Counted from the first letter of the stretch, positions 486-49,744 are shown. The stretch is 64,000 bases of DNA from Patescibacteria group bacterium (GCA_050260175.1 JBLNBS010000156.1:6098-70097); one strand, 5' to 3'. The notes: a model not told the origin generated them from the letters alone. Translations and numbers: made by a program.

Positions 486-674
486 ATCGAATGGCCGGAT
501 GCGAAGCCTGCTGCGCCTTTGGCGCGTGAGGTCGACCAAGGTCGCAGGCAACCAAGGTACCTTTAAATCCGGGAAGAATGCCCGAGTCCCGCCGGGTCAA
601 AGACACTGGTCCGCCGGCCGCCCTTCCGCTGTACTCTTGTAACAAAGAAGAGAGTGAGAGGAGCGCCTGACGGG

Positions 675-1256
675 ATGCCCGCACCAGAACCCAAGCCGGA
701 ATCCACCCAACTGACCTTCGTCGGCGCCGGCAGACAGGGGAGCGTCTACCGCCTCGACGCCGGCCGGTGCATCAAGTATTACGCGCGCCGCAAGTTCCTC
801 CGCCGCGAGCTGGCCGCTCTGCAGCAGGCGGGCGGAGATCCCCTCCTCCCCCGCGTCCTGGCTTTTGGCGACGACTTTATCATCAGGGAGTACCTGGAGG
901 GGACGCCGCTCGACCGATACCTCTCCCTCGAGGGGCGCGGACTGACCCAGGCCCTGGCCGTCAAGCTCCTGCGGGTCTATGAAACCCTGGTCAGATTGGG
1001 CTATCGCCGCGCGGACCTGAGGCTCGCCCATGTCATCCTCACGCCCGCCGGCGATCTCCGGGTTATCGATCCCACCAACATGATGAAGGAAGACCGCAGG
1101 TTTCCCAAAAAGCTCCTCCACGACCTGGCGAGGCTCGGCGGGCTGGAAGTCTTCATGGCCGTCCTGGCGCGCCACCGGCCGGATCTCCTGCAATCCTGGC
1201 GTAAACGCCTGTCATACGCACCGGGGGGAGAGACAGCCCCAGAGATGGGAGCTTGA
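675..1256 (+). CDS. Small protein-kinase-fold protein (RIO/Kdo/Bud32-like), function unknown
   Basis: About 190 aa. G-rich loop VGAGRQGSVY, a conserved-looking K in CIKYY, a catalytic-loop-like ADLRLAHVILTPAGDLRVIDPTN. ATG at 675 is preceded by GAGAGGAG. Confidence 0.45.
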   Translation: MPAPEPKPESTQLTFVGAGRQGSVYRLDAGRCIKYYARRKFLRRELAALQQAGGDPLLPRVLAFGDDFIIREYLEGTPLDRYLSLEGRGLTQALAVKLLRVYETLVRLGYRRADLRLAHVILTPAGDLRVIDPTNMMKEDRRFPKKLLHDLARLGGLEVFMAVLARHRPDLLQSWRKRLSYAPGGETAPEMGA

Positions 1257-1345
1257 AGCTCGAATCCGCGGCCATCGTTCACATCAGGTTCGTCCAAAGG
1301 TGTCGCGGATTCGGGGGATAATAGCCCCGGAGGTGGCGATGCGAG

Positions 1346-2360: not shown

Positions 2361-2984
2361 ATGCATCGTTTCCTGACCCGTACTCTCCCTCTCGTGACTC
2401 TCCTGCCGGCCGTGCTTCTGCTGGCCTGTGCCCCGGCCGCCCTGGGCGCGGGCCGCTTTGGCGCCACCGACGTGATGGACGTGCCGACCAGCGGCATCCT
2501 GAACGACGGCGCTTTCGGACTGTATGCCAACGCCGAGGACGGCCTGACCGTGCTGGGGATGGATTTTGGCCTCCTCCCCAACCTCGAAGCGGGCTTGCAG
2601 GCCCTGCTCTCGGGCGGTTGGACCAGCGCCGGCCTGCGTCTCAAGTACCACCTGCTCTCCGAGAAGAGGGACGGGTTCGGCCTGGCCGTCGGGCTCCAGG
2701 ATATCGGCCAGACGTTTACCACGCCGTACATCGTCGCCGGCAAGACCCTGGGCCGTGGTTTCCAAGGCTACCTCGGCATCGGCGGCGGCTGGCTCGATGG
2801 GGTCTTTTTCGCCCTGACCAAAAGGCTCGACACCTCGCTGGGAGCCGATCTCTTCCTCGAGTACGACGGCTCGGGAGTGAACGCCGGCGCCCGGCTGCCC
2901 CTCACCCCCGGGCTCAACCTCGACCTGGGCGCGCCCGACCTCGACCATTTAGTCGTGGGCGTTTCGTACGTGAGCAGGTTCTAA
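2361..2984 (+). CDS. Exported beta-rich protein, candidate small outer-membrane barrel
   Basis: RBS AGGAGG lies upstream of ATG 2361. Signal peptide MHRFLTRTLPLVTLLPAVLLLACAPAALGA. Alternating Gly/aromatic beta-like segments. C-terminus ...VGVSYVSRF ends in Phe, as in OM barrel sorting signals. The 2079 start in the ORF track would overlap the BON gene. Confidence 0.5.
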   Translation: MHRFLTRTLPLVTLLPAVLLLACAPAALGAGRFGATDVMDVPTSGILNDGAFGLYANAEDGLTVLGMDFGLLPNLEAGLQALLSGGWTSAGLRLKYHLLSEKRDGFGLAVGLQDIGQTFTTPYIVAGKTLGRGFQGYLGIGGGWLDGVFFALTKRLDTSLGADLFLEYDGSGVNAGARLPLTPGLNLDLGAPDLDHLVVGVSYVSRF

Positions 2985-3146: not shown

Positions 3147-4880
3147 ATGGCATCACCAAGACAAAGGGTGAAACGTGTGACCCTCCTCGCCGACTGCGAA
3201 GCTCTGGGAGCGATCCTCGTGCGCCGGGGATCGATCGACGCGGACCAGCTCGAGCGGGCCCTGGCCGAGCAGAAGGAATCCGGCCGCCCGCTCGGCGCCG
3301 TCCTCGTGGAGAGGGGCTATGCCGCGGAGACCGCCGTGGCGCAGGCCCTCGCCGAGCAGCTCGGCCTCGAATACTGCGAGCCCGCCGCGATGGAGATCCC
3401 GTCCGCGGCCCTGGCCGCCCTCACTCCCCGCCTGGCCGAGCGTTTCAAGGTGGTGCCGCTGCGGTTGGAGGAAGGCCGCTTGACCGTGGCGGTCTCCGAT
3501 CCGTTCGACCTGGAGCGGCTCGACCTCCTGCGCGACCTGACGGGCCTGGCGCTCCGCCCGGCCCTGGCCACCGGCCAAGCCATCGAGGACGCCCTCCGGC
3601 GTTATTACAGGGGTGGCGGCGAAACGGTCGCGGCCGTGCTGGAAGGACTCGACGAGACGGACCTCCTCATCCTCCAGAACGAGGAAGGCATCTCGGATCT
3701 GGCCGCGCTCGAGTCCATCGCCAACGAGGCGCCCATCATCCGCCTGGTCAACCTGCTCCTGGTCAACGCGGTCAAGGCCGAGGCCTCCGATGTGCATCTC
3801 GAGCCCTTTGAGGACGAGGTCAAGGTCCGATACCGCATCGACGGCATCCTGTACGAGGTCGACGCCCCGCCCAAACGCCTCTACCCCGCGGTCCTCTCCC
3901 GCATCAAGCTCATGGCGGGCATGGACATCACGGAAAAGCGCCTGCCCCAGGACGGCCGCATCCGCCTGCGCATGGCCGAGCGGGACCTGGACCTCCGTGT
4001 GGCCGTGGCGCCCACCCTCCACGGCGAGAGCGTCGTGCTGCGCATCCTGAACCGCCAGAACATGCTCTTTTCCCTCGAGACGCTGGGGTTTTCCCCCCAT
4101 ACGCTCGCGCAGTTCACCAAGCTCATCGAGCGGCCCCACGGCATGATCCTGGTCACCGGGCCCACCGGCAGCGGCAAGACGACCACCCTCTACGCGGTGC
4201 TCGCCAAGCTCAACATCACGGGCCGCAAGATTATCACCATCGAGGACCCGGTGGAGTACGAGCTCAAAGGCGTCAACCAGATGCAGGTCAACCCCAAGAT
4301 CAACTTCGGCTTTGCCCAGGGTATGAGGACCATCGTCCGCCACGACCCAGACGTCATCCTGGTGGGCGAGATCCGCGACCGCGAGACGGCCGAGGTGGCC
4401 ATCCAGTCCGCGCTCACCGGCCATCTCGTCTTTTCCACCCTGCACACCAACGACGCGGCGGGCGCCTTTACCCGCCTCTTGGACATGGGCATCGAGGAGT
4501 ACCTGGTGGCCTCCACCATCCGCGGCGTCCTGGCCCAGCGCCTGGTCAGGCGCATCTGCCCGGCGTGCCGGACCAGCCGGTCCATCACCGCGGAGGAGTT
4601 GGAGCGCCTGGGCGCGGAGATTCCCCCCGGGCAGACGGTGCATTGGGGCGCGGGATGCCCGCGGTGCAACCGGATCGGCTACCGGGGCCAGGTGGGCCTC
4701 TACGAGCTGCTCCTGACCTCCCCGGAGATCGAGAGTATGGTCATGGCCAGGACCAGCAGCAGCCGCCTGCGGGAGCAGGCCGTCAAGGAGGGGTTGGTGA
4801 CGTTGCGCCAGGACGGCGTGGCCAAGGTCAGGGAAGGCGTCACGAGCGTCGGCGAGGTGCTGCGCGTGACCCAGGAGTGA
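3147..4880 (+). CDS. gspE: Type II secretion / type IV pilus assembly ATPase GspE
   Basis: N-terminal MshEN/T2SSE_N-like domain (LGAILVRRGSIDADQLERALAEQKESGRPLGAVLVERG). Walker A GPTGSGKTT, Walker B ILVGEIRD, His box GHLVFSTLHTNDA. Tetracysteine motif CPAC...CPRC, typical of GspE-class ATPases. Confidence 0.93.
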   Translation: MASPRQRVKRVTLLADCEALGAILVRRGSIDADQLERALAEQKESGRPLGAVLVERGYAAETAVAQALAEQLGLEYCEPAAMEIPSAALAALTPRLAERFKVVPLRLEEGRLTVAVSDPFDLERLDLLRDLTGLALRPALATGQAIEDALRRYYRGGGETVAAVLEGLDETDLLILQNEEGISDLAALESIANEAPIIRLVNLLLVNAVKAEASDVHLEPFEDEVKVRYRIDGILYEVDAPPKRLYPAVLSRIKLMAGMDITEKRLPQDGRIRLRMAERDLDLRVAVAPTLHGESVVLRILNRQNMLFSLETLGFSPHTLAQFTKLIERPHGMILVTGPTGSGKTTTLYAVLAKLNITGRKIITIEDPVEYELKGVNQMQVNPKINFGFAQGMRTIVRHDPDVILVGEIRDRETAEVAIQSALTGHLVFSTLHTNDAAGAFTRLLDMGIEEYLVASTIRGVLAQRLVRRICPACRTSRSITAEELERLGAEIPPGQTVHWGAGCPRCNRIGYRGQVGLYELLLTSPEIESMVMARTSSSRLREQAVKEGLVTLRQDGVAKVREGVTSVGEVLRVTQE

Positions 4881-4890
4881 CCCAGAAGAA

Positions 4891-4980
4891 CCCCCGGGTT
4901 GAAACCCGGGGAAGCTTTGGTACATCCGTGTACGTCGCTTACCCTTTAGCCCATCCTGGGCGGGGGCGGCTTTGGTACAT
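4891..4980 (+). repeat. Copy of modular REP family (modules H+G+partial G)
   Basis: CCCCCGGGTTGAAACCCGGGG hairpin followed by AGCTTTGGTACATCCGTGTACGTCGC...GGGCGGCTTTGGTACAT. Near-identical to the units at 16241, 17127 and 17939. Confidence 0.85.
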
Positions 4981-5019
4981 AGAATCGCATGAAATCGGTA
5001 TGTTGCCTGATCTGCATAA

Positions 5020-5175
5020 TTGCTTTACGTGATTAGAAATGATTTAACAAGATTAACATGATTTCATGATTTACACAGATTATTTGTCTATTAGTTTATC
5101 TTTATTAATGATTTTAATCTTAAATCTTGTTAATCCCATTAATCATGTAAATCATGTGATGTCGTTTCCTGTTTT
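5020..5175 (+). repeat. AT-rich island with phased TAATC/GATTA repeats and a GTTAATCC core
   Basis: ...TTTTAATCTTAAATCTTGTTAATCCCATTAATCATGTAAATCATGTG... in an otherwise GC-rich context. Lies between gspE and gspF. Confidence 0.7.
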
Positions 5176-5259
5176 ATGTGTTTATCAGTCCAAGAACGGT
5201 TTTTCACAGCGCTTCTAGTATGTGTAATACTAGTTTGTACCAGGGGTGGTCTTTGCTCC

Positions 5260-6465
5260 ATGGCGGACTTTACTTACCAGGCGGCGGACGCGGGCGGCCG
5301 CACCACGAGCGGTCGCATCAACGCGCCGTCGCGGCACGAGGCCATGGACGCCCTCCGCGCCAAGGGGCTTATTCCGTTACGTCTGGCCGAAGCCGCGGCC
5401 CGAGAGACGCGGCGCGATTCCGCGGGCAAGCCCAAAAGCCGGGATGTGCTCGCCTTTACCCAGCAGCTGGCGACCCTGGTGGGAGCGGGCCTGCAGCTGG
5501 ACCGGGCGCTCGCGATCATGGCGGGGCTCGCGCGCGGGGACCGGATGGGCGCCACGCTCGCCGCCATCCGCCGCGACGTCCAGGAAGGGGTCGCGTTTTC
5601 CACTGCGCTGGAGCAGCATCCGCGGCTTTTCAGCCGGATCTACGTCAACATGGTGCGCGCCGGCGAGGCGGGCGGCGTGCTGCCCGTCGTCCTGCGGCGG
5701 CTGGCCCAGACCATCGAGGAGGAACGCGAACTCCGTTCCTTCGTTATGGGCGCCCTGCTCTATCCGGCGGTTGTGGCCGCGGTCAGTTTTCTCGCCGCCT
5801 GCGTGCTGCTGCTCGTCGTCGTCCCCTCCTTCGAACGGATTTTTGCCAAGATTAACCAGGATCTCCCCGCCATCACCCGTCTGACCGTGGCGGTCAGCCA
5901 CGGCCTCAAGGCATACGGCCTCTGGATCGCCGGGGGCCTAGCCGCCGCGGCCCTCGCGGCCTGGCGGGCCGTCCGGCAGCCGGCGGGCAGGGCGGTCCTG
6001 GACCGCGTTTACCTGCGTTTTCCTTACTTCGGCGTCCTCTACCTCAAGGTGTTGACCGTAAGGTTGACGCGGACCATGGCCATGCTGGTGGGAGCCGGGG
6101 TCTCCGTGCTGCAGACCTTTGCCGTGGTCAAGGAGACGGTGGGCAACAGTGTCGTGGCCGCCGCCCTGGCCCGCGCCGGGCAGGAGATCAAGGAGGGCGG
6201 CGGCGTCGCCAGGCGGCTCGAGGCCCAGCGCATCCTCCCCCCCCTGGCCGTGCAGATGATCGCCGTGGGCGAGGAGACCGGGGAACTGGCCTCCATGCTC
6301 GACCAGGTCGCCAAGGGCTACGACGCAGAGGTCCGCCTGGCGGTGAGGAACCTCCTTTCCCTGATGGAACCGGTTTTGATCCTCTGCCTGACGGCGATGA
6401 CGCTCCTCATCGCCCTCTCGATCCTTATCCCCCTGGTGAGCATGAATACGGGCGGTGTTTTTTAG
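5260..6465 (+). CDS. gspF: Type II secretion inner-membrane platform protein GspF
   Basis: N-terminus MADFTYQAADAGGRTTSGRINAPSRHEAMDALRAKGLIPLRL is typical of GspF/PilC. Two GspF-type repeats (LATLVGAGLQLDRAL, MLVGAGVSVLQTF). Hydrophobic TM segments. Confidence 0.92.
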   Translation: MADFTYQAADAGGRTTSGRINAPSRHEAMDALRAKGLIPLRLAEAAARETRRDSAGKPKSRDVLAFTQQLATLVGAGLQLDRALAIMAGLARGDRMGATLAAIRRDVQEGVAFSTALEQHPRLFSRIYVNMVRAGEAGGVLPVVLRRLAQTIEEERELRSFVMGALLYPAVVAAVSFLAACVLLLVVVPSFERIFAKINQDLPAITRLTVAVSHGLKAYGLWIAGGLAAAALAAWRAVRQPAGRAVLDRVYLRFPYFGVLYLKVLTVRLTRTMAMLVGAGVSVLQTFAVVKETVGNSVVAAALARAGQEIKEGGGVARRLEAQRILPPLAVQMIAVGEETGELASMLDQVAKGYDAEVRLAVRNLLSLMEPVLILCLTAMTLLIALSILIPLVSMNTGGVF

Positions 6466-6500
6466 TCCGGAACAAATCGGCATAATGGGGTGTGATCGTG

Positions 6501-6938
6501 ATGCGTCGTTCCGAGCGCGGGTTTTCCCTGATCGAGATCACCGCGGTATTGCTCCTCATGGCCGCTTTCGCGGTGATCGTGGCGCCCCAGGTCATCCGGT
6601 CGGTGGAAAAAGGCAGGGTCAACGCGGGCAAGTCGCAGATCCAGAGCCTCAAAAGCGTCCTGAACCAGTACAAGCTGGAAAACGGAGCCTACCCCACAAC
6701 GGAGCAGGGCCTCGACGCCCTCTACGAAAAGCCCACCGTGCCGCCGGTCCCGGAGAACTGGGACGGGCCCTACGTCGAGGACCCGGTCAAGGAGGACCCC
6801 TGGCACCACCCGCTGGTATACAGGTGCCCGGGATTGCACAACAAGAACGGCTACGACCTCATGAGCTACGGCGCTGACGGCGTCGAGGGCGGCACGGGTT
6901 ACGACGCAGACATCACCAACTGGACGCAGACCAGATGA
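6501..6938 (+). CDS. gspG: Major pseudopilin GspG
   Basis: Class III signal MRRSERG|FSLIEITAVLLLMA with Glu at +5. GspG body: QIQSLKSVLNQYKLENGAYPTTEQGLDALYEKP...WDGPYVE...DPWHHPLVYRCPG...YDLMSYGADGVEGGTGYDADITNW. Confidence 0.92.
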   Translation: MRRSERGFSLIEITAVLLLMAAFAVIVAPQVIRSVEKGRVNAGKSQIQSLKSVLNQYKLENGAYPTTEQGLDALYEKPTVPPVPENWDGPYVEDPVKEDPWHHPLVYRCPGLHNKNGYDLMSYGADGVEGGTGYDADITNWTQTR

Positions 6939-7360
6939 AGGTGCATCCCGGCGGTTTCACCCTGCTGGAGGTCACGGCGGTCCTGGTCGTCCTGGCCCTG
7001 TTGACGGTCTTTGCCCTGCCGGGCCTCGTCAGGGGCACGGCAGGAGCGGAGGTGCGGCTCTGCCGCGACCAGCTCCGCCGCGATCTCCGTGCGGCGCGGG
7101 CCGAAGCGGTAGGCAAGATGCGCGAGACGGCCGTGTTTTTCCAGGGCACCGTCTATACCATGGATCTCGGCGGTGAACCACTCGAGCGAAGCCTGCCGGG
7201 AGGGTTCTCCTTCGTGCGGGTGGCCCTGGGGGGAGAGGTGGAGGAGGGGCTGAGGTTTTGGCCGGACGGGCGCAGTAACGGCGCGGCCATCGAGGCGGCG
7301 GCCGGGGGGCGCGTCTGCCGGGTCACGGTGCGGGAGGACGGCAGCCTTGTCTTTGAATAG
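6935..7360 (+). CDS. gspH: Minor pseudopilin, GspH-like
   Basis: Prepilin-type N-terminus GGFTLLEVTAVLVVLALL. Size and operon position after gspG. Start overlaps the gspG stop. Confidence 0.7.
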   Translation: MKVHPGGFTLLEVTAVLVVLALLTVFALPGLVRGTAGAEVRLCRDQLRRDLRAARAEAVGKMRETAVFFQGTVYTMDLGGEPLERSLPGGFSFVRVALGGEVEEGLRFWPDGRSNGAAIEAAAGGRVCRVTVREDGSLVFE

Positions 7361-7706
7361 GGGCACCCGCGGCTTTACCCTGCTCGAGGTGGTGGCGGCC
7401 ATGATGCTGCTCGGCGTGGGCCTCGCCATCCTCTACACCGGCTACATGCAGGCGGCAAACCTCGAGGCCAAAGCGGCCGAGACGGGCACGGCCTATATCC
7501 TGGCCCGGGCAAAGCTGGCCCAGGCGGAGGCGGGCGAGGAGACGGGCGCCGCGGGGCGATGCGAGGGCGCGCCCGGCTTTGCCTGGAAGCTGGAACGCGC
7601 GCCGCTCCCCGGCACAGGGCTGGCGCGCCTGTCGGCCACGGTCTCCTGGCAGGACGCGCGGGAGCGCTCCGTGACGGTCTGGACGCTGGTGAACGATGGC
7701 ACGTAG
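7347..7706 (+). CDS. gspI: Minor pseudopilin, GspI-like
   Basis: RGFTLLEVVAAMMLLGVGLAIL N-terminus, about 119 aa, overlaps both neighbours. Confidence 0.7.
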   Translation: MSLNRGTRGFTLLEVVAAMMLLGVGLAILYTGYMQAANLEAKAAETGTAYILARAKLAQAEAGEETGAAGRCEGAPGFAWKLERAPLPGTGLARLSATVSWQDARERSVTVWTLVNDGT

Positions 7707-8292
7707 AGGGCAAGAAGGCATGACCCTGCTCGAGCTGAACGCCGCGCTCCTCGTCACGAGCCTGGTCGTGCTCACCGTGGCCTCGTCGCTGGGGGCGATC
7801 TCCGGGGCCTGGGACCGGAGCGAGCGCCAGGCGGCGGGCAGGGAGGCCACCAGGGTCCTGGCCCGCCGTCTGGGCAGGGAACTGGGCTCCCTGAGCCGGG
7901 GCCCCTTCGGCTTGGAGCCCGGGTTCAGCGGCGAAGCGGATGGCATGAGTTTTACCGCCGTGGGCGACGAGGGCGCGCGCCGCGTCTCGCTCGCCCTGCG
8001 CGCGGGAAGGATCGTGCTCACGGAGACCCTGCTCCTGCGCGCCGATGATCAAAACGTCAAGGAGATCCCCCTGGCCGACGGGGTGAGGGAGTGGCGGCTC
8101 GCCTATTACGATCCAGCCGCAAAGCAGTGGCGGGACCGCTGGTCCCCGGAGGAGCGGGGGCGCCCCCCCTCGCTCGTGCGGATCGAGGTGTTCCTGACCG
8201 GGGCCGCAAGGACGCGCCGCGCGCCCGTCCTGGTCGTCCCCCTTTACATGGGCGGCATCGCGGCCGCCGGGGAGGCGGATCCCGGTGGCTGA
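7696..8292 (+). CDS. gspJ: Minor pseudopilin, GspJ-like
   Basis: EGMTLLELNAALLVTSLVVL N-terminus, about 198 aa, position between the I-like and K-like genes. Confidence 0.65.
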   Translation: MARRGQEGMTLLELNAALLVTSLVVLTVASSLGAISGAWDRSERQAAGREATRVLARRLGRELGSLSRGPFGLEPGFSGEADGMSFTAVGDEGARRVSLALRAGRIVLTETLLLRADDQNVKEIPLADGVREWRLAYYDPAAKQWRDRWSPEERGRPPSLVRIEVFLTGAARTRRAPVLVVPLYMGGIAAAGEADPGG

Positions 8293-9508
8293 ACGGAACC
8301 GCGCAAGCGGCGCCGCGCTGCTCGTCGTCATCTGGGCGCTGGCCGTCATCGGCGCGGTCGTCGCAGCCTATTTCGGCCGCGGCCTGCTCGAGGTCAAGCT
8401 AGCCCAGGACCTGCGGCAGGAGATGGAGGCCAGGGCCCTGGCCCAGGCGGGCCTCGCCTGTTTCATCCGCCGCTTCCTGGACGACCGGGACGGGACGGAC
8501 GATGCGGGTTCGGCCTGGCTGTTCGCCGGGGACGACGCGCCGCCTGATTTTCCCGAGGGCAGCGTCGAGGTGAGGGTGGCCGATCTCGGCAGCAGGATCA
8601 ACCTCAACCTGGACGGCGAGGACGGGCTCCTGCAGGCCTTTGGGGGCAGAAGAGAGCCGGTCGACGCCATCCTGGACTGGCGCGACGCCGATGACGAGCC
8701 GCGCACCGGCGGCGCCGAGGCGGACTACTACGCCGGGCTGACCCCTCCCATGCGGGCGGCCAACGGCATGTTCCGCAGCCCCGAGGAGGCGCTCCTCGTC
8801 AAGGGTCTGGCCAAGTTCCCGAGGACCCTGGCGAACGAGACCACGGTCTTTGGCCGGGCCAATCCCAACCTGATCGGCACGGAGACCTGGACCGCGATCC
8901 TCGTGGCCGCCGGTTTCGACGAGCTCCGGGTCGAGCTGCTCTCCGAGCAGTTCACCCAGGTCCGGGGCGACGCCATCAAGGCGGGCCGCGTACCCTTTGC
9001 CCAGCCGGACGATCTAAAACAGCTCCAGAGCGCCACCTACCTGACGCTGGAGCGGTTGCTCCCCTATCTCACCTTTACGGGGCGGATCAATCCCAATCTG
9101 GCGAGCGAGCGGTCCCTGCGGGCGGCCCTGGCCGTCCTGGGGGTACAGGCGGATAAAGCTAAGGCCATCGTCGCGGCCAGGGACGCCGCCCCATTTCGAG
9201 AGCTAGGCGCGCTGCAGGGCTTTCTGGTCAAGACCGATCAAAAATTAGTCAGCAAGGACTGGACCGACCAGGTCTTTACCCTCCAGACGACCCTGGCGGG
9301 CGTGGAGATCGTCGGCAAGACAAAAAGCGGCGCCCTCCACCGCCTCGTGGCCGTGGTGGAGAGGTTTCATCCGCCGCGGGAAACGGAGCTTTGGCAATGC
9401 CGGTTCCTCTACTGGCGCGAGTGGCCTGGCGAGGGCTTCCCCGTCCTGCCCGAGGAGGACGGGGAACAGGGCGCCGGGGAGCCGGAACTCGAGGAAACGG
9501 CGGGCTGA
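8285..9508 (+). CDS. gspK: Minor pseudopilin GspK
   Basis: N-terminal hydrophobic segment without Glu+5 (SGAALLVVIWALAVIGAV), as in GspK. Signature ILDWRDADDEPRTGGAEADYYAGLTPPMRAANGMFRSPEEALLVKG. Confidence 0.85.
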   Translation: MAERNRASGAALLVVIWALAVIGAVVAAYFGRGLLEVKLAQDLRQEMEARALAQAGLACFIRRFLDDRDGTDDAGSAWLFAGDDAPPDFPEGSVEVRVADLGSRINLNLDGEDGLLQAFGGRREPVDAILDWRDADDEPRTGGAEADYYAGLTPPMRAANGMFRSPEEALLVKGLAKFPRTLANETTVFGRANPNLIGTETWTAILVAAGFDELRVELLSEQFTQVRGDAIKAGRVPFAQPDDLKQLQSATYLTLERLLPYLTFTGRINPNLASERSLRAALAVLGVQADKAKAIVAARDAAPFRELGALQGFLVKTDQKLVSKDWTDQVFTLQTTLAGVEIVGKTKSGALHRLVAVVERFHPPRETELWQCRFLYWREWPGEGFPVLPEEDGEQGAGEPELEETAG

Positions 9509-9535
9509 GCCGGTCTTGCAACCGGCTCCCCGCGC

Positions 9536-11065
9536 GTGATCGGAGGTCGCAAGGTGCGCCCACACTCTTTCTTTGGCTCTCGCGCCCATCCTGGCGGCGT
9601 GGTGGGATTCGACTGCGACGGCGATGAACTACACGCCGCGGAACTCCGCCTGACCGCGGGCGGCCCCTGCCTGGTTGCGGCCAGATCCATGCGCGTGGCG
9701 GGTGAGGTCTCCTCCCGCGGTGAACTGCTCTCCACCTACCTCCTGGAGATGCTCCGCGAGGGCGGCTTCCGCGCTGCGGCCGGGGCCATGGCCGTCCCCC
9801 GCGCCGGGGCCGTCGCCCGCGTCCTGGACCTCCCCCCGCTCAAGGCGGAATCGACCGGGCTGGCCGCGGCCGCCGCGCTCGAGGACCAGCTCCCCTTCCC
9901 CCCGTCCGAGCTCTGCCTGGGCTGGCGACGACAGGCCGGAAGCCGGGTGGTGCGCGCCGCCGCCGCCCGCCGCGCCGCGGTCGAGGAATGCCGGGCCGCC
10001 ATGACGGCCGCGGGTCTTTCCCCATCCCGCGTCGACGTGCGGCCCCTGGCAGCCGCCGCCGCTTTACATTACTGGCACGGCAGGAGTCTCGGCAATCGCA
10101 CCGCCGTCCTCCTGGAGCTGAGGCGCGCGGAGTCGGCCTTGATCTGCCTGCGCAAAGGCGAGGTTACTTACTCCCGTGCCCTGCCGGGCCTGGGGGAGGA
10201 GCCCGCGGCCGGCCTGCCGGGACTCGCGGCGGAACTCTCCTCCAGCCTCGCCATCCTGCGCGCCCGGCCGGACTGGGACGACCCGGGTTGCCTCTGGCTC
10301 GCCGGGATCTGTGCCGCGGATGCGGAGGTCCGCCGGACCTTGGCCGGGCTGCTCGGCCTGGCGCCCGAGGTCTGCCGGGCGGCATCGATCCCCGTCGCGG
10401 AAGGATCCCGCTTTGTCCAGGGAGCCGCGGCCGATCGTTTCGGTATGGGCCCCGAGGCCCCCCGGGAACTGGGGCCCGAGATGCTGGTCCCAATCGGGCT
10501 CTGCCTGGGCGCTCTGGGCCTGGCGGACATGGGACCTGACCTCCTGCCGGGGCTTTCCACGGACAAGCGGACCCGCCATCCCTTCCTCTCCCTCGCCGTC
10601 CCCCTGGGACTGACCGTGATCCTCGCCCTGGGCGGCCTCAGGTTCCTGGCGGCGGCCGGGCGCAGGCGGATGGAAGTGCGGCGGGCATGGCTCTCGGCCA
10701 ACGCCGGGCGGATCGCCGCCCTGGAGCGGCTGCAGGCCGAGACGGCGTCGCAGGCGCGCAGCTTTGCGCATCTCGACGGGTACGGGAAGGAATCCGCGGC
10801 GTATCTGGACTTTCTCCTTGCGCTGGACCAGGCCCTGCCGGCCGAGACCATCGTGACCCGCCTCTCGCTGGCCGGCGGGCGCGTGCAGACCCTCGAGGGC
10901 TACACGCCGTCGGTCTCCGTCCTTTTACGGCGGCTCAAGGCCGATCCGTCGCTCGCCCGCCTGAACCTGCGCGGCCAGGCCGTGGCCAGGACCGTCGGCG
11001 GGCGCACCATGGAGGTATTCGCGCTGGCGGGACCCATCGGCCGGGGTGGGGAGGAAAAGCCATGA
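9536..11065 (+). CDS. GspL-like assembly protein (PilM-like cytoplasmic actin-fold domain + TM + PilN-like periplasmic domain)
   Basis: About 500 aa in the position after gspK. N-terminus VGFDCDGDELHAAELRL... resembles PilM/GspL cytoplasmic domains. One TM (FLSLAVPLGLTVILALGGLRFL) followed by a roughly 130-aa tail. The start codon is uncertain. Confidence 0.6.
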   Translation: MIGGRKVRPHSFFGSRAHPGGVVGFDCDGDELHAAELRLTAGGPCLVAARSMRVAGEVSSRGELLSTYLLEMLREGGFRAAAGAMAVPRAGAVARVLDLPPLKAESTGLAAAAALEDQLPFPPSELCLGWRRQAGSRVVRAAAARRAAVEECRAAMTAAGLSPSRVDVRPLAAAAALHYWHGRSLGNRTAVLLELRRAESALICLRKGEVTYSRALPGLGEEPAAGLPGLAAELSSSLAILRARPDWDDPGCLWLAGICAADAEVRRTLAGLLGLAPEVCRAASIPVAEGSRFVQGAAADRFGMGPEAPRELGPEMLVPIGLCLGALGLADMGPDLLPGLSTDKRTRHPFLSLAVPLGLTVILALGGLRFLAAAGRRRMEVRRAWLSANAGRIAALERLQAETASQARSFAHLDGYGKESAAYLDFLLALDQALPAETIVTRLSLAGGRVQTLEGYTPSVSVLLRRLKADPSLARLNLRGQAVARTVGGRTMEVFALAGPIGRGGEEKP

Positions 11066-11616
11066 AACTCAGCCATTCCGAGCGGCGCACGCTGGGCGTG
11101 GTCGGCGCCGCGCTTTTCCTGCTCCTCGTCTTTACCTATGGCATACAACCCCTCCTGGGCGCCGGGTTGAGCGGAGAGGACAAGGCGCTGGCGAACCGGG
11201 TGGCGCGGGCAAGGCTCCTCCTTGCCAAGGCGGCGGGCATTCACGCTCGCCACGCGGCGCAGGCCGAGGCGCTCGCCGGGGCAATGGCCCATTTCCCGCC
11301 CGACGCCAAGACGGATCGGGGCGGCCTCTCGCTCCTTGCCGGCGTGGAAAAAGCAGCGCTTGCCGCGGGGCTGACCCTGACCGCCAAGGGCCTCGGCCCG
11401 GCCGGGCGCGGCACCCCGCCCGAGGTCAGCGTGGCCATAGCCGGCCAGGGCGAACCCGCCGCGGTCTTTGGCTTTCTTTACAGGCTCCGCGCCGGCGCGG
11501 TGCGAGTGGAGATCAAGCGCCTGGACCTGGCGGCGGGCGAGGAGCGCATCCTCCAAATCCAGGCGGAGATCGCCACCATCCTGCCGCGGGCCAAGGGGGT
11601 TCCGGCTGATGAGTAA
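11062..11616 (+). CDS. GspM/PilO-like bitopic assembly protein
   Basis: ATGA overlap with the upstream gene. N-terminal TM (LGVVGAALFLLLVF), a coiled segment and a small C-terminal domain. Called from position and topology only. Confidence 0.5.
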   Translation: MKLSHSERRTLGVVGAALFLLLVFTYGIQPLLGAGLSGEDKALANRVARARLLLAKAAGIHARHAAQAEALAGAMAHFPPDAKTDRGGLSLLAGVEKAALAAGLTLTAKGLGPAGRGTPPEVSVAIAGQGEPAAVFGFLYRLRAGAVRVEIKRLDLAAGEERILQIQAEIATILPRAKGVPADE

Positions 11617-12076
11617 GCTTTTATCCCCGCGCCTGCTGTGGCTGGCGGCCGCCCTCGCCGCCGCGTTCTGCGCCTACGGGTTTTGGTCCTATGCGGTCGC
11701 CGGCCGGCCGGTCGAGCCCGTCAAACCCCGCGCCGCAACAGCGGCGGGCCCCGTCCGCGCCGCGAAGAACGTGCCCGGTCCCGGCCTTTACGCGGGCCTG
11801 GCCGGGGGGAGGATGTTCTTTGGCGAGGCGCAGACCGCCGCGGGCGGGGACGGGAGTCCCGGCGTCTACGTCTCCGCGCTGGTCCTGCGGGGCATCGTGC
11901 TCGGCGGGGGGCGGAAACCACTGGCCATCCTGGCGCGGGCCGGTTCGCCGCCCGAGGCGGAGTCATGGACCGTGAGCGTGGGCCAGACCGTGGAGGGCGA
12001 GACGGTGGTCGCCATCAACCGGGACAGCGTGACCCTGGCGCGCGGCGGCCAGGTGACCGTGCTTTTTCTACAGTGA
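11609..12076 (+). CDS. GspC/PilP-like protein
   Basis: N-terminal TM (LLWLAAALAAAFCAYGFW). C-terminus VLRGIVLGGGRKPLAILARAG...WTVSVGQTVEGETVVAINRDSVTLARGGQVTVLFL resembles the GspC HR / PilP secretin-binding domain. Confidence 0.55.
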   Translation: MSKLLSPRLLWLAAALAAAFCAYGFWSYAVAGRPVEPVKPRAATAAGPVRAAKNVPGPGLYAGLAGGRMFFGEAQTAAGGDGSPGVYVSALVLRGIVLGGGRKPLAILARAGSPPEAESWTVSVGQTVEGETVVAINRDSVTLARGGQVTVLFLQ

Positions 12077-47224: not shown

Positions 47225-49744
47225 TCATTTCTTATCCTCGTCCATGTCGATGACGATGGGGCCCGCGGTGCTGCCCGTGCCCTGTATATCGGCCACGATC
47301 TGGTTGATCTGCGCGGGATCCTCGATCAGGCGCGGCGTGATGATGATGACGAACTCGTCCTGGCGCTTGACCCGCTTCGTGTTTTGAAAGAGCTTGCCGA
47401 TGATGGGGAGGTAGCCGAGGATGGGCACCTTGGAAACGTTGATGTCCTCGGATTCCTGGATAAAACCGCTGATGACCACGGTGTAACCGTCCATGATCCG
47501 CACGGTGCTCTGGGTGGAGCGCTCCATGACGCCGGGCAGGGCCGCGATCTCGCTGCTCACCTCGGGGCTCGTGGTGAACTGGCTGATGCTGGGCTTGAGC
47601 TCCAGCGTGATCTCCTTGTTCGCGGAGACCCAGGGGGTCATGGTCAGCTGGATACCGGAGTCGATGGTGATGTAACGGTACTCCGTGGTCGTGGTCGTCG
47701 TGGAGCTGCTCGTCGTGGGCACGGGGTAATTGTATTTCGTGACGACGTTGAACTGGGCCGCGAAACCGCTCAGGGTGGCGATCTTTGGGTTGGCCCTCAC
47801 CCTGGCCCGGCCGCTCGTGATGGCCGCGTTGATGCTGGCCGTGAGCTGGGCCGCGGCCGGCGTGTTGGGGCTGATGATCGTGCCGATCAGGCTGCCCAGG
47901 TCCCATTTGAGCGTCTGCCCGTCGAGGGTGAGCGTGGCCGAGGAGAGACCGCCGCCCTTGGTCTCGGTCTCTGAAAACTGCAAAACCAGCGTATCGAAGA
48001 GGATCATCGGCGCCATGACGTCGATCTTGGCCAGGAAATCGCGGACCTGCGCCCGGTATCCCTCGTTGCCGGTCACCACGATGCTGTTCGTCTCCTTGAC
48101 GAGCACCAGCTCGGTCTTGGGAATGCCCGGCGGGAAGAGCTTAAGGGCGTCCTCGGCCTTCATGTGCCTTAACGCCACGACTTCCGACCTGATCGTCTCC
48201 TGGGGCACATCCACCTTGGCGAGGAAGGCCTTGAGCGCCGCGATGAGCTTGGGCGTGCCGTTGACGAGGAGGGAGTTGGTCTCCTTGAGCAGGATGATGT
48301 TCTGCCTCGGGTAGACCGTCGGCAACGAGTTCCAGATGCTCTCGGCCGTGATGTAGCGGAGGGGGATGACCTCGGACTGGATGAAATCCGTGTCGCCCTG
48401 GCGGAAATTGACGCCCTCCCCGACCAGGTAGGTGTCGCCGTCCTTGCGGAACGTGAAGGTGGTTCCCGCCAGGAGCCTGCCCAGCGCCTCCTCGAAACTA
48501 GCGTTCACCAGGCGGACGCTGGTGACGTTCCAGTTCACGTTGGCGTAGATGACGAGGTTGTAGTTCTTCTTCTTGGCCAGTTCGGTGGCTGCCGTGGCCA
48601 GACTGGCGTTGTTGACCTCGAGATCGATCGTGCCGTCCTCGTTGATGGAGATGACGATGCTCTGGCCGGTCATGAGCCTCTTTACCGTAAAGGCGTTCCC
48701 CTCGCGTTCGAGCACGAAGCCGTTGGCCTCCAGGAAGGCCGAGAGGCCCTCCACCAGGCCGGCTTGGGCGATATTGCCGCTGGCGCGGCCGCTCACGTCA
48801 CGATCCGGCAGGATGGTGATGCCGGCCTGCCGCGCCACCTCGGAGAGGATCTCCGTGATCTCCGCGTTGCGCACGTCCAGGGTTAATAGGCCCCCGCTGA
48901 CCTTGACGCCCCCCGTGCTCTCGCCCCGGGAGAAGCGGTAGTGCCCGCCTTCCTTGAAGACGCGCAGCCCGTTGGCGGCGGCGATGGCGCCCAGCGCCTC
49001 GTCCAGGGGCAGAGGCGCGAAAAAGACGTTCACCTGCACGGCCGCGGCAGCCTGGTCGCAGATGACCGCCAGGCCCGTGCGGCTCGACAACTCCCGCACG
49101 AGGACGCTCAGGGGCACGCCCGACAGGTCGGCGCTGAGCCGGCCCTCCTCGTATTTGACGGACATGCTGCCGAGGCTGGCGACCTGGCGGAAGATATAGG
49201 CGCCGCTGCGCTTTTCCACCTGGCAGCGGGCGCTCTCCGCCAAAAGCGAGATGAGATCTGCCAGGGGGAGCCTGCCCAGAACCAGGTTGAGGTGTTCGGT
49301 GGGCTCCTGCCCGGTGAGGGTGAGGTTCACGCCGGTGACGCGGGTCAGCTCGGCCAGGACCGCGCGGAGCTTGGCCATCTGTAGCTCCAGCGAGTAAAGG
49401 CCCTCGGCCTCTTTCGTCACCTTGATAATCTGGCGCGTGACCGTGTAGAACCTGCCTTCCTTTTTGACCTGGAGGCGGTACATGGCGGCCAGCCTGTTCA
49501 GGCAGTCCTCAAAGGTCACGTTCTCGAAATGGAAAGAGACCGCGCCGGTCACGGTCTCGTCCATGAAAACGCTCACCCCGGCCTGGGCCGCCAGGGCGTT
49601 CAGCACGTCGCGCAGGTCGGCGTTCTTGTAGTTGACGGAGTCCAGGACCTGGTTCGCAGCGGTCACGGAAAGGGAGACGATCAGCAAGCCGAGGAGCACC
49701 AGGCCCAAAAGGCGCCGCAAATAAGGACTGGCACTGTTACGCAT
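47225..49744 (-). CDS. gspD: Secretin (GspD/PilQ family) with five N0/STN-like modules
   Basis: Signal peptide. Five roughly 70-aa modules of the pattern ...A.L..VL..LA...G....... Two N1-type domains (IPLRYITAESI..., VVALRHMKAEDA...). C-terminal secretin domain with VSKVPILGYLPIIGKLFQ. Confidence 0.88.
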   Translation of the reverse strand: MRNSASPYLRRLLGLVLLGLLIVSLSVTAANQVLDSVNYKNADLRDVLNALAAQAGVSVFMDETVTGAVSFHFENVTFEDCLNRLAAMYRLQVKKEGRFYTVTRQIIKVTKEAEGLYSLELQMAKLRAVLAELTRVTGVNLTLTGQEPTEHLNLVLGRLPLADLISLLAESARCQVEKRSGAYIFRQVASLGSMSVKYEEGRLSADLSGVPLSVLVRELSSRTGLAVICDQAAAAVQVNVFFAPLPLDEALGAIAAANGLRVFKEGGHYRFSRGESTGGVKVSGGLLTLDVRNAEITEILSEVARQAGITILPDRDVSGRASGNIAQAGLVEGLSAFLEANGFVLEREGNAFTVKRLMTGQSIVISINEDGTIDLEVNNASLATAATELAKKKNYNLVIYANVNWNVTSVRLVNASFEEALGRLLAGTTFTFRKDGDTYLVGEGVNFRQGDTDFIQSEVIPLRYITAESIWNSLPTVYPRQNIILLKETNSLLVNGTPKLIAALKAFLAKVDVPQETIRSEVVALRHMKAEDALKLFPPGIPKTELVLVKETNSIVVTGNEGYRAQVRDFLAKIDVMAPMILFDTLVLQFSETETKGGGLSSATLTLDGQTLKWDLGSLIGTIISPNTPAAAQLTASINAAITSGRARVRANPKIATLSGFAAQFNVVTKYNYPVPTTSSSTTTTTTEYRYITIDSGIQLTMTPWVSANKEITLELKPSISQFTTSPEVSSEIAALPGVMERSTQSTVRIMDGYTVVISGFIQESEDINVSKVPILGYLPIIGKLFQNTKRVKRQDEFVIIITPRLIEDPAQINQIVADIQGTGSTAGPIVIDMDEDKK

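What the first reader, a model, noticed from the sequence alone, without database searches (positions are those of the whole stretch)
3147..12076. Complete-looking T2SS inner-membrane and pseudopilus operon in a putative diderm spore-former, lacking secretin and prepilin peptidase
Seen in sequence:
- The genes run gspE, F, G, H, I, J and K, followed by L-like, M-like and C/PilP-like genes.
- From gspG onward all are translationally coupled.
- GspG has the canonical T2SS body (…GPYVE…DPW…Y…G.DG), not a ComGC or type IVa pilin body.
- GspK lacks Glu+5, as expected for GspK.
- GspE has the CxxC...CxxC zinc motif.
- No gspD or gspO/pilD lies in the operon.
- The only secretin in the window is 35 kb away on the opposite strand.

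Established knowledge: classical T2SS is characterised almost exclusively in Proteobacteria and a few other Gram-negative phyla.

Inference: a bona fide T2SS in a Limnochordia/Negativicutes-like lineage would be a poorly described system, and its substrates are unknown. The adjacent hydrolase and GH38 genes are not obviously exported.
Basis: partly seen in the sequence, partly recalled or inferred. Interest (0 to 1): 0.62.

Follow-up and report, generated by a model that had tools for sequence, protein, structure and literature searches.

The report
Type II secretion operon, diderm Bacillota
A spore-forming soil bacterium with an outer membrane carries a real ten-gene type II secretion operon; its outer-membrane pore gene lies 35 kb away and its pilin-processing peptidase is borrowed from a separate pilus cluster, making this an unstudied variant of a well-known protein-export machine.

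Summary
Window 3147-12076 encodes gspE-F-G-H-I-J-K, a fused PilM/PilN-type GspL, a GspM-like protein and a short GspC-like protein.

- **Classification.** GspE, GspG, GspJ, GspK and GspC pass curated family cut-offs. Trees of the ATPase and the platform protein put both inside the T2SS clade (99/99 and 92/91 support). This genome's own PilB and PilC fall outside it.
- **Missing parts.** The genome has only two secretins, one prepilin peptidase and three T2SSE-family ATPases. A complete type IVa pilus cluster on another contig accounts for PilB, PilT, PilQ and PilD. The second secretin (window 47225-49744) has full-length orthologues beside gspE in eight related Bacillota genomes, so it is the likely pore.
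- **Distribution.** The operon is conserved in about 27 Bacillota species, including cultured Capillibacterium thermochitinicola.
- **Differences from textbook T2SS.** GspE carries an N-terminal MshEN (c-di-GMP) module. GspL keeps a full PilM fold. GspC is the HR domain only. The secretin has five tandem N0 modules.

Protein secretion and substrates are inferred, not shown. Verdict: a new variant of a known kind, of moderate interest.

The parts
2361..2984 (+). Conserved upstream neighbour: a small exported, YjbH-like, probable outer-membrane protein. Whether it belongs to the system is uncertain.
   Evidence: It has a signal-peptide-like N-terminus and a C-terminal ...SYVSRF. Pfam YjbH scores 31.7 bits against a cut-off of 24. 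Homologues at 35-39% identity lie directly upstream of gspE in L005, L008, L018 and L023.
3147..4880 (+). gspE: T2SS-type assembly ATPase with an N-terminal MshEN (c-di-GMP-type) module.
   Evidence: TIGR02533 scores 639 bits (cut-off 630). The NF053729 c-di-GMP motif scores 63 bits (cut-off 38) at residues 20-71. It has CPAC/CPRC and a Walker A motif. It sits inside the T2SS ATPase clade with 99/99 support. The AU test rejects grouping it with Firmicute PilB (p = 0.004).
4881..5259 (.). gspE-gspF spacer made of dispersed repeats: a REP-like hairpin at about 4891-4980 and a 240-nt AT-rich element at about 4979-5218.
   Evidence: blastn finds more than 40 copies of the AT-rich element across the genome, and REP copies at window ~16.2-18.0 kb. 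GC drops to 18-32%. There is a hairpin after gspE and promoter-like hexamers at 5203-5231. The closest relative L004 has E and F about 15 nt apart. Logan contigs do not span the spacer.
5260..6465 (+). gspF: inner-membrane platform protein.
   Evidence: Pfam T2SSF is matched twice. TIGR02120 is the best model at 377 bits. It sits inside the T2SS-type platform clade at 92/91, while the genome's own PilC falls outside.
6492..6938 (+). gspG: major pseudopilin.
   Evidence: TIGR01710 scores 140 bits (cut-off 89) and Pfam T2SSG 127 bits. Eight of the nine PDB sequence matches are GspG proteins; the ninth is only the N-terminal helix of a Geobacter pilin. Identity to E. coli GspG is 38%; there is no match to the genome's own PilA.
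6935..7360 (+). gspH-like minor pseudopilin.
   Evidence: It has a prepilin leader with G-1 and E+5, and only weak XpsH/GspH hits. Its position between G and I is conserved in relatives.
7347..7706 (+). gspI-like minor pseudopilin.
   Evidence: N_methyl scores 30 bits. The XpsI hit is weak. It has G-1 and E+5.
7696..8292 (+). gspJ minor pseudopilin.
   Evidence: Pfam T2SSJ scores 35 bits against a cut-off of 28. The leader reads G|MTLLE.
8285..9508 (+). gspK minor pseudopilin (tip subunit, no Glu+5).
   Evidence: Pfam T2SSK_1st scores 51 bits against 26. NF037980 GspK scores 97 bits, below its cut-off of 130. The only PDB sequence hit is XcpX/GspK. The leader reads G|AALLV.
9536..11065 (+). 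gspL-equivalent: a covalent PilM-PilN fusion.
   Evidence: Pfam matches PilM_2 (residues 65-215) and PilN (residues 427-493). The AF2 model has pLDDT 78 and shows an actin-like fold, a TM/coiled-coil segment and a ferredoxin-like domain. The best Foldseek matches are PilM (TM 0.72-0.73); cyto-EpsL/GspL score lower at 0.56-0.67. The protein is fused in all 16 orthologues that the BLAST search found.
11062..11616 (+). gspM-like bitopic protein.
   Evidence: NF040576 GspM scores 31 bits (cut-off 60) and Pfam T2SSM 21 bits (cut-off 28). These are the best and only hits. The position is conserved in relatives.
11609..12076 (+). gspC-like protein: TM segment plus HR domain only, with no PDZ or coiled-coil domain.
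   Evidence: Pfam T2SSC scores 35.9 bits against 27 and covers residues 11-154, the whole profile. The protein is 155 aa. Equivalents of about 150 aa are found in relatives and on the Comamonas plasmid.
47225..49744 (-). Probable cognate outer-membrane secretin (839 aa): five N0/STN modules, two Secretin_N domains and the secretin barrel.
   Evidence: Pfam matches Secretin, STN, Secretin_N and GspD_N0. The AF2 secondary structure shows five repeated modules, which share 18-25% identity with one another. The top Foldseek hit is PulD. Orthologues aligning over most or all of their length (313-507 bits) lie divergently beside gspE, or convergently after the operon, in eight relatives. It is one of only two secretins in the genome.

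Best explanation
This is the inner-membrane and pseudopilus half of a working type II secretion system in a diderm, spore-forming Bacillota. Two parts encoded elsewhere in the genome complete it: the 839-aa secretin at window 47225-49744, and the single prepilin peptidase PilD in the T4aP cluster on contig C25.

**Proposed mechanism, by homology with Gsp/Eps/Xcp systems**
1. Substrates reach the periplasm through Sec or Tat.
2. PilD cleaves the G|F-type leaders of GspG, H, I, J and K.
3. The GspE hexamer has a Walker A motif and a CxxC...CxxC zinc site. It docks on the PilM-like cytoplasmic domain of the fused GspL and on the GspF platform.
4. ATP hydrolysis polymerises a short GspG pseudopilus capped by H-I-J-K.
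5. The HR domain of the short GspC links the platform to the N0 modules of the secretin.
6. The growing pseudopilus pushes folded proteins through the secretin.
7. The N-terminal MshEN module of GspE may put assembly under c-di-GMP control.

**Shown here:** gene content, family and clade membership, synteny of the secretin in relatives, and the predicted folds of L and the secretin.

**Inferred:** that the parts work together, that the output is protein secretion, which proteins are secreted, and c-di-GMP binding.
For: **Family models**
- GspE, GspG, T2SSJ, T2SSK_1st and T2SSC score above their curated cut-offs.
- GspG matches only GspG structures in the PDB, apart from one pilin N-terminal helix.

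**Phylogeny**
- ATPase tree: the window's protein and 12 Bacillota orthologues lie in a 99/99 clade with E. coli GspE, XcpR, Ralstonia GspE, Aeromonas ExeE and Myxococcota gspD-E-F-G loci. All PilB references, including this genome's own, lie outside.
- The AU test rejects a Firmicute PilB grouping (p = 0.004).
- The platform tree agrees, at 92/91.

**Genome inventory**
- Three T2SSE-family ATPases: GspE, PilB and PilT.
- Two platform proteins, two secretins and one A24 peptidase.
- A complete pilB-pilT-pilC-pilA-pilD-pilMNOP-pilQ cluster on C25 uses up the pilus parts.

**Secretin synteny**
- Secretins of 822-874 aa align with the window's secretin over most or all of their length at 27-37% identity and 313-507 bits. 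They score only 59-79 bits against the genome's own PilQ.
- They lie next to gspE in L012, L013, L024, L028, L029 and L030, and just after the operon in L020 and L021.

**Conservation**
- The ten-gene order is conserved in about 27 Bacillota species, including a locus encoding the Capillibacterium thermochitinicola protein.
- A Comamonas plasmid operon that PGAP annotates as T2SS has the same order, E-F-G-H-I-J-K-L(PilN domain)-M-x-D, and is sister in both trees.

**Envelope**
- TamB and BamA in the window show that an outer membrane exists.
- Secretins occur in 40 of 41 sampled genomes of the class.
Against: - No functional or expression data exist, and no substrate was identified. The neighbouring alpha/beta hydrolase and GH38 lack signal peptides.
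- The E and F family models discriminate poorly. This genome's PilB scores 606 bits on the GspE model, and its PilC scores 408 bits on the GspF model, higher than the window's GspF.
- By pairwise BLAST, F is closer to the genome's own PilC (36%) than to E. coli GspF (29%).
- L matches the PilM and PilN families and the PilM fold better than GspL.
- H, I and M have only weak hits.
- The secretin falls far below the GspD equivalog cut-off (154 bits against 351). It scores the same on the PilQ model, and its top PDB sequence hit is Tad RcpA.
- The secretin is unlinked in this genome and in its closest relative L004.
- gspE and gspF are separated by repeat insertions with a hairpin just after gspE. 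Public contigs do not confirm the assembly across this spacer.
- The leading Arg of both MshEN half-motifs is replaced, by Ala and by Pro.
Confidence: 0.7

Rival explanations
1. The operon builds a non-secretory type IV filament. This would be an adhesive, DNA-uptake or other surface or periplasmic fibre assembled by T2SS-like parts, not a protein exporter.
For: - L keeps a full PilM fold.
- The ATPase carries the MshEN module typical of MshE and PilB-type pilus ATPases.
- The sub-clade that holds it (Omnitrophota, Terriglobia, a Comamonas plasmid) has no characterised member that I found.
- T2SS descends from T4aP (PMC6668835).
- No substrate gene is linked to the operon.
Against: - The major subunit is an unambiguous GspG-type pseudopilin with the conserved C-terminal DG...D.DITNW region.
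- No retraction ATPase is attached to the system.
- The genome already has a complete T4aP cluster.
- The E and F trees place it with secretion systems.
Confidence: 0.15
2. The locus is a decaying or silent remnant. It would be uncoupled from its secretin, split by mobile repeats between gspE and gspF, and no longer functional in this organism.
For: - The 379-nt E-F spacer consists of a REP-like hairpin and a >40-copy AT-rich element, with a hairpin directly after gspE.
- The secretin is 35 kb away, although eight relatives keep it adjacent.
- Five of the 14 class genomes in the phylum sample lack a GspG above cut-off, so loss does happen.
Against: - All ten ORFs and the secretin are intact, full length, and keep their motifs.
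- Third-position GC is 83-90%, as in other genes.
- The closest relative shares the unlinked arrangement.
- Promoter-like hexamers sit at the 3' end of the inserted element, in front of gspF.
Confidence: 0.07
3. The operon is an accessory module of the T4aP machine. It would supply alternative minor or major pilins and an alternative motor that use PilQ and PilT from contig C25, with the long secretin serving something else.
For: - PilD must be shared in any case.
- The ATPase is 44% identical to the genome's own PilB and the platform 36% identical to its own PilC.
- The secretin is not linked to the operon in this genome.
Against: - The operon encodes its own complete alignment set (L, M, C), which duplicates PilMNOP.
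- The long secretin travels with the operon in eight relatives.
- The E and F trees separate the two systems deeply.
Confidence: 0.05

Closest known systems
Canonical Gsp-type T2SS of Proteobacteria (E. coli K-12 gspC-O, Klebsiella Pul, Vibrio Eps, Aeromonas Exe, P. aeruginosa Xcp)
   Same: - It has the same component set: E, F, G, H, I, J, K, L, M and C, plus a secretin and a prepilin peptidase.
- GspG is 38% identical to E. coli GspG.
- GspK lacks Glu+5, and GspE has the zinc CxxC pair.
- No PilT belongs to the system.
- The ATPase and platform fall in the same clade.
- Sharing PilD with the pilus system has a precedent in P. aeruginosa PilD/XcpA (own knowledge).
   Different: - The gene order starts with E, and the operon holds no C-D at its front and no O.
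- GspE has an extra N-terminal MshEN module.
- L is a full PilM fold fused to PilN and does not match the GspL families.
- C is 155 aa with no PDZ or coiled-coil domain.
- The secretin has five N0 modules and two N1/N3-type domains instead of N0-N1-N2-N3, and it is unlinked.
- The host is a spore-forming Bacillota.
Uncharacterised 'E-first' T2SS operons, such as the Comamonas odontotermitis plasmid NZ_CP083452.1 (gspE-F-G-H-I-J-K-'PilN domain protein'-gspM-hyp-gspD), with Terriglobia and Omnitrophota loci
   Same: - They are the sister group in both the ATPase tree (91/82) and the platform tree (87/87).
- The gene order is the same.
- GspE has the long N-terminus with the MshEN motif.
- L is annotated only as PilN-domain.
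- They have a C-like protein of about 150 aa.
   Different: - The Comamonas secretin is the last gene of the operon. It has the usual one N0 and three Secretin_N domains.
- The Bacillota version has five N0/STN modules and sits divergently, convergently or unlinked.
Type IVa pilus machine (this genome's own cluster on contig C25; Thermus and Pseudomonas PilM/N/O/P/Q)
   Same: - It shares homologous parts throughout.
- L resembles PilM plus PilN, M resembles PilO, and the C HR domain resembles PilP.
- Both ATPases carry MshEN.
- The two systems share the prepilin peptidase.
   Different: - There is no PilT.
- L is fused, whereas PilM and PilN are separate.
- The major subunit is GspG-type rather than PilA-type.
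- The two systems fall in separate clades for both ATPase and platform.
- The secretin is different: the genome's PilQ has one N0, one Secretin_N and C-terminal LysM repeats.
The single T2SS reported among six secretin-bearing type IV filament systems of diderm Firmicutes (Denise, Abby & Rocha 2019, PMC6668835)
   Same: It is a computational detection of a T2SS in an outer-membrane-bearing Firmicute.
   Different: That report concerns Halanaerobiales and Negativicutes and states that the secretins 'lacked distinctive domain architecture'. Here the lineage includes Hydrogenispora and Capillibacterium relatives, and the secretin does have a distinctive five-N0 architecture. I could not check whether the two systems are orthologous.

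Membership tests
Type II secretion system (T2SS) | Assembly ATPase of the GspE lineage | tested here: met
   TIGR02533 scores 639 bits against a cut-off of 630. It lies inside the 99/99 T2SS ATPase clade with PilB references outside. The AU test gives p = 0.004 against a Firmicute PilB grouping. Caveat: the HMM alone discriminates weakly, since the genome's own PilB scores 606 bits.
Type II secretion system (T2SS) | Platform protein of the GspF lineage | tested here: met
   The platform tree gives a T2SS-type clade at 92/91, and the genome's own PilC falls outside it. TIGR02120 is the best model but scores below cut-off (377 against 424) and is not specific.
Type II secretion system (T2SS) | Major pseudopilin GspG | tested here: met
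   TIGR01710 scores 140 bits against 89, and Pfam T2SSG 127 bits against 21. Eight of the nine PDB matches are GspG proteins.
Type II secretion system (T2SS) | Minor pseudopilins H, I, J and K, with K lacking Glu+5 | tested here: met
   J and K pass Pfam cut-offs. H and I have prepilin leaders and weak XpsH/XpsI hits. K reads G|AALLV, and the other three have E+5.
Type II secretion system (T2SS) | GspL: a bitopic protein with an actin-like cytoplasmic domain and a ferredoxin-like periplasmic domain in one chain | tested here: met
   The AF2 model shows this architecture. The protein is fused in all 16 orthologues that the BLAST search found.
Type II secretion system (T2SS) | Sequence membership of L in the GspL families (Pfam T2SSL / GspL_C) | tested here: not met
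   Only PilM_2 and PilN are matched. The only PDB sequence hit is Thermus PilM. The fold is closer to PilM (TM 0.72-0.73) than to cyto-EpsL (0.56-0.67).
Type II secretion system (T2SS) | GspM | tested here: inconclusive
   The only hits are GspM models, but both fall below cut-off: NF040576 at 31 against 60, and Pfam T2SSM at 21 against 28. The genome's own PilO also hits the GspM model, at 41 bits.
Type II secretion system (T2SS) | GspC with an HR domain that contacts the secretin | tested here: met
   Pfam T2SSC scores 35.9 bits against 27 over the whole profile. A second domain (PDZ or coiled coil) is absent. Contact with the secretin was not tested.
Type II secretion system (T2SS) | Dedicated GspD-type secretin | tested here: inconclusive
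   A second secretin exists, and its orthologues are syntenic with the operon in eight relatives. The top Foldseek hit is PulD. Against that, TIGR02517 scores 154 bits against a cut-off of 351, the same as on the PilQ model. PDB sequence hits are mixed, and the N-domain architecture is atypical.
Type II secretion system (T2SS) | Prepilin peptidase available (GspO/PilD) | tested here: met
   One A24 peptidase is present in the genome, in the T4aP cluster on C25. Sharing it between the two systems is inferred.
Type II secretion system (T2SS) | No retraction ATPase belonging to the system | tested here: met
   The genome has only three T2SSE-family ATPases. The single PilT lies next to pilB on C25.
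Type II secretion system (T2SS) | Secretes folded periplasmic proteins across the outer membrane | not testable with these tools
   No expression, proteome or mutant data are available. Cultured carriers exist.
Type IVa pilus (T4aP) | PilB-lineage ATPase with PilT, separate PilM/N/O/P and a PilA-type major pilin in the system | tested here: not met
   The ATPase and platform lie outside the PilB and PilC groups. The locus has no PilT. M and N are fused. The major subunit is GspG-type. A separate full T4aP cluster exists.
Competence (Com) pilus | ComGA / ComGB / ComGC equivalogs | tested here: not met
   ComGA scores 272 bits against 300 and is far below the best models. ComGB scores 96 against 240, and ComGC 22 against 75.

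The most novel reading that the evidence does not exclude
The operon would represent a distinct, uncharacterised T2SS lineage: the 'E-first' sub-clade shared with Omnitrophota, Terriglobia and a Comamonas plasmid. This lineage keeps T4aP-like traits, namely a full PilM-fold L and an MshEN c-di-GMP module on the ATPase. In diderm spore-formers it would have gained a secretin with five tandem N0 modules, perhaps to span a wider periplasm or thicker wall. It would be an old, vertically inherited component of the outer-membrane-bearing Bacillota class and its main route for exporting folded hydrolases.
Probability: 0.35. Interest if true: 0.65.

Novelty: new variant of a known kind. Interest (0 to 1): 0.45.

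Why it matters
- **An unstudied T2SS setting.** T2SS is understood almost only from Proteobacteria. A conserved T2SS in outer-membrane-bearing, spore-forming Bacillota gives a second, distant system in which to ask what is essential. Examples are a PilM-like GspL, a C protein with the HR domain only, and a five-N0 secretin.
- **Envelope evolution.** It adds a marker to the debate on whether the Firmicute outer membrane and its machines are ancestral.
- **Ecology.** These lineages are common in soil, compost and digesters, and one cultured carrier is chitinolytic by name. The system is therefore a candidate export route for polymer-degrading enzymes.
- **Testability.** Cultured carriers (Capillibacterium thermochitinicola, Hydrogenispora ethanolica) make the question testable by experiment.

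Tried and rejected
- **First ATPase tree.** It used only the loci fetched by similarity plus E. coli GspE and HofB. It had no proper T2SS or T4aP references or outgroup and gave an unresolved, misleading placement. I replaced it with the referenced trees.
- **Tree.** It contained two sequences translated in the wrong frame (Aeromonas ExeE and the Acetoanaerobium ComGA-like protein). I corrected this.
- **The search for homologous proteins on GspE.** It returned only close Bacillota orthologues. It gave organism names but no reference sequences.
- **PDB sequence searches.** These were not decisive for the ATPase: PilF and PilB score higher over the full length because of the MshEN region, while Vibrio GspE scores higher over the core. 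They were also not decisive for the secretin.
- **Family-model scores for E and F.** They cannot separate T2SS from T4aP here, because this genome's PilB and PilC score about as well.
- **Gene downstream of the secretin.** I looked for a conserved partner. The 253-aa protein and the ECF sigma factor are not conserved beside the secretin in relatives.
- **Laying public contigs on the E-F spacer.** The contigs break at the repeats, so they neither confirm nor refute the assembly there.
- **Literature searches.** Searches for T2SS in Limnochordia, Limnochorda or Hydrogenispora found nothing specific.
- **Earlier notes of this scan.** There were none on similar sequences in other genomes.
- **Com pilus, Tad and MSH.** I considered these identities and rejected them on model scores and gene content.

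Full report
**1. What is in the sequence**

Window 3147-12076 carries ten same-strand ORFs with high third-position GC (83-90%). They are E 3147-4880, F 5260-6465, G 6492-6938, H 6935-7360, I 7347-7706, J 7696-8292, K 8285-9508, L-like 9536-11065, M-like 11062-11616 and C-like 11609-12076.

Pfam and NCBIfam scans gave these results:
- GspE: TIGR02533 at 639 bits (cut-off 630), against PilB TIGR02538 at 594 bits (cut-off 676).
- GspF: best model at 377 bits, below its cut-off of 424.
- GspG: TIGR01710 at 140 bits (cut-off 89), and Pfam T2SSG at 127 bits.
- T2SSJ: 35 bits against 28.
- T2SSK_1st: 51 bits against 26.
- GspM: weak hits only.
- T2SSC: 35.9 bits against 27, across the whole profile.
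- L-like protein: PilM_2 at its N-terminus and PilN at its C-terminus.

- The leaders read G|FSLIE, G|FTLLE, G|FTLLE and G|MTLLE in G to J.
- K reads G|AALLV, with no Glu+5.
- GspE has CPAC at residue 471, CPRC at 504 and a Walker A motif.
- Junctions G/H, H/I, I/J, J/K, L/M and M/C overlap by 4-14 nt.
- K to L has a 27-nt gap, F to G 26 nt and E to F 379 nt.

**2. Is it T2SS or a pilus?**

The family models for E and F are poor discriminators here. This genome's own PilB scores 606 bits on the GspE model, and its own PilC scores 408 bits on the GspF model. By BLAST, F is closer to the genome's own PilC than to E. coli GspF. I therefore built trees with named references:
- E. coli GspE and HofB.
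- P. aeruginosa XcpR, Ralstonia GspE and a Comamonas plasmid GspE.
- Aeromonas ExeE and a second Aeromonas PilB/MshE-type ATPase, and Acetoanaerobium PilB with its PilT.
- A Deinococcus PilF-like protein.
- Actinomycetota PilB-PilT-PilC loci and Myxococcota gspD-E-F-G loci.

With PilT as outgroup, the window's ATPase and 12 Bacillota orthologues (100/100) fall inside a 99/99 clade that holds every T2SS reference. All PilB references, including the genome's own, lie outside. Forcing the Bacillota group together with Firmicute PilB costs 40 log-likelihood units (AU p = 0.004). I named that group after seeing the tree, which weakens the test somewhat.

The platform tree is congruent. It gives a T2SS-type clade at 92/91, with the genome's own PilC outside.

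Within the T2SS clade the Bacillota proteins belong to a sub-clade (91/82 for E, 87/87 for F) with Omnitrophota, a Terriglobia locus and the Comamonas plasmid. PGAP annotates that plasmid operon as T2SS, and it has the same order: E-F-G-H-I-J-K-L(PilN domain)-M-small protein-D.

The major subunit is unambiguous. Eight of its nine PDB matches are GspG proteins. The ninth covers only the N-terminal helix of a Geobacter pilin.

**3. The missing parts**

The genome is 3.17 Mb in 174 contigs and 98% complete. It has:
- exactly two secretins;
- one A24 prepilin peptidase;
- three T2SSE-family ATPases;
- two platform proteins.

Contig C25 holds a complete T4aP cluster, pilB-pilT-pilC-pilA-pilD-pilM-pilN-pilO-pilP-pilQ, followed by aro genes. 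The retraction ATPase and pilus-type pilin therefore belong to a separate system. PilD must be shared, as P. aeruginosa PilD/XcpA is shared (own knowledge).

The other secretin is the 839-aa protein at window 47225-49744. In relatives, secretins of 822-874 aa align with it over most or all of their length, at 27-37% identity and 313-507 bits. They score only 59-79 bits against the genome's own PilQ. These secretins lie divergently next to gspE in L012, L013, L024, L028, L029 and L030, and convergently just after the operon in L020 and L021. A further partial copy, cut by the contig end, lies in L016. This synteny is the main argument that the distant secretin is the system's pore. In this genome it lies next to an outer-membrane biogenesis cluster with TamB and BamA.

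**4. How this system differs from textbook T2SS**

*GspE.* It has an extra N-terminal MshEN module (NF053729, 63 bits against 38). Both 24-residue half-motifs described by Wang et al. 2016 (PMC5013675) keep their Leu, Gly and Gln positions. The leading Arg is replaced in each, by Ala and by Pro. That paper reports that Arg changes alter affinity less than fivefold, so c-di-GMP binding is plausible but unproven.

*GspL.* The AF2 model (pLDDT 78) shows an actin-like domain, a TM helix with a long coiled coil, and a ferredoxin-like domain. This is the GspL architecture. The best fold matches, however, are PilM from Pseudomonas and Thermus (TM 0.72-0.73), ahead of cyto-EpsL and GspL (0.56-0.67). 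No GspL family model is matched.

*GspC.* It is 155 aa and consists of the HR domain only.

*Secretin.* It has five tandem N0/STN-like modules of about 75 aa:
- The AF2 secondary structure repeats five times.
- The modules share 18-25% identity with one another.
- Pfam matches STN and GspD_N0.
- Two Secretin_N domains and the barrel follow.
- The top Foldseek hit is PulD, with T4P PilQ proteins ranking lower.
- The Comamonas GspD has the usual one N0 and three Secretin_N domains, so the five-N0 form seems specific to the Bacillota group.

**5. Distribution and host**
- About 27 species-level Bacillota MAGs carry the operon with GspE at 56-74% identity.
- Named carriers are Hydrogenispora ethanolica and Capillibacterium thermochitinicola.
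- The locus that encodes the Capillibacterium protein has the same ten-gene order.
- GspG scores above cut-off in 22 of 401 sampled genomes of the phylum, and in 9 of the 14 class members within that sample.
- Secretins occur in 40 of 41 class genomes, many of them 840-890 aa long.
- The window also carries a GerxC germination gene and a SpoIVB-like peptidase, so 'diderm spore-former' is reasonable.
- The source is a soil metagenome.

**6. Mechanism**

By homology, PilD processes the five pseudopilins. GspE docks on L and F and polymerises a GspG pseudopilus capped by H-I-J-K. C links the platform to the secretin's N0 modules. Folded periplasmic proteins are then pushed out through the secretin.

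Membership, synteny and predicted folds are shown here. Cooperation of the parts, secretion itself, the substrates and c-di-GMP control are inferred.

**7. Caveats**
- The gspE-gspF spacer is filled by a REP-like hairpin and a 240-nt AT-rich element that has more than 40 genomic copies. The closest relative has no such spacer.
- Public Logan contigs break at these repeats, so the assembly there is unverified, although it agrees with the gene order in relatives.
- No expression data were found.

**8. Novelty**

T2SS is rare outside Proteobacteria (PMC4793230). Denise et al. 2019 counted one T2SS in diderm Firmicutes and noted no distinctive secretin architecture. PGAP already names several orthologues GspE. 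The system is therefore not categorically new. It is an unstudied variant with several unusual traits and with cultured carriers available.

Noticed in passing
window 4881-5259: The gspE-gspF spacer is built from two dispersed repeats. One is an ~87-nt GC hairpin unit, also found in the IS200/REP arrays at window ~16.2-18.0 kb. The other is a ~240-nt AT-rich element (GC 18-32%) with more than 40 copies at 85-93% identity on more than 35 contigs, so it looks MITE-like. The nearest relative lacks the insertion.
   Followed up: partly
window 47225-49744 (-): The secretin carries five tandem N0/STN-like modules. It also has a Ser/Thr-rich run (PTTSSSTTTTTTE, about residues 676-688) inside the barrel region, where the AF2 model loses confidence. 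The five-N0 form is shared by Bacillota orthologues but not by the Comamonas GspD.
   Followed up: partly
G000 contig C25:26892-28829 (L084:2892-4829, -): The T4aP secretin PilQ of this genome ends in two LysM peptidoglycan-binding repeats (Pfam LysM, 120 bits). This is an unusual C-terminal addition for a secretin.
   Followed up: no
window 2361-2984 (+): A small exported protein with a weak YjbH-like N-terminal match and a C-terminal ...SYVSRF is conserved directly upstream of gspE in four relatives (L005, L008, L018, L023). It may be an outer-membrane accessory of the system.
   Followed up: partly
window 45098-47035 (-): Downstream of the secretin lie a 253-aa protein with no family match, an ECF sigma factor (45713-46267) and two small ORFs. 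None of these is conserved beside the secretin in relatives.
   Followed up: partly
window 51948-60213 (+): An outer-membrane biogenesis cluster holds TamB (1551 aa), a sigma factor (56836-57483) and a BamA homologue (58396-60213). A SpoIVB-like S55 peptidase (49902-51818) precedes it, divergent from the secretin.
   Followed up: partly
window 27307-27397 (+): An Rfam 'pan' motif (RF01749, 51 bits against a gathering score of 36) lies upstream of the pantothenate genes. It is the only Rfam match in the window.
   Followed up: no
L004, L014 (NCBI JBLNCE010000009.1, JBLNDC010000630.1): Two MAGs labelled 'Bacteroidota bacterium' carry this operon at up to 74% GspE identity and nest inside the Bacillota clade in the tree. 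Their taxonomic labels look wrong.
   Followed up: no
L087 / L090 (PLSDB NZ_AP026896.1, NZ_CP154629.1): Two PLSDB 'plasmid' records are 4.9 Mb (Aeromonas caviae) and 2.6 Mb (Acetoanaerobium noterae). They carry chromosomal T2SS and T4P loci, so they are chromosomes filed as plasmids.
   Followed up: no
window 654-2215 (+): Upstream of the locus lie a small kinase-like protein (654-1256, weak Ser/Thr kinase hits) and a four-BON-domain protein (1346-2215). Any link to the operon is unknown.
   Followed up: no
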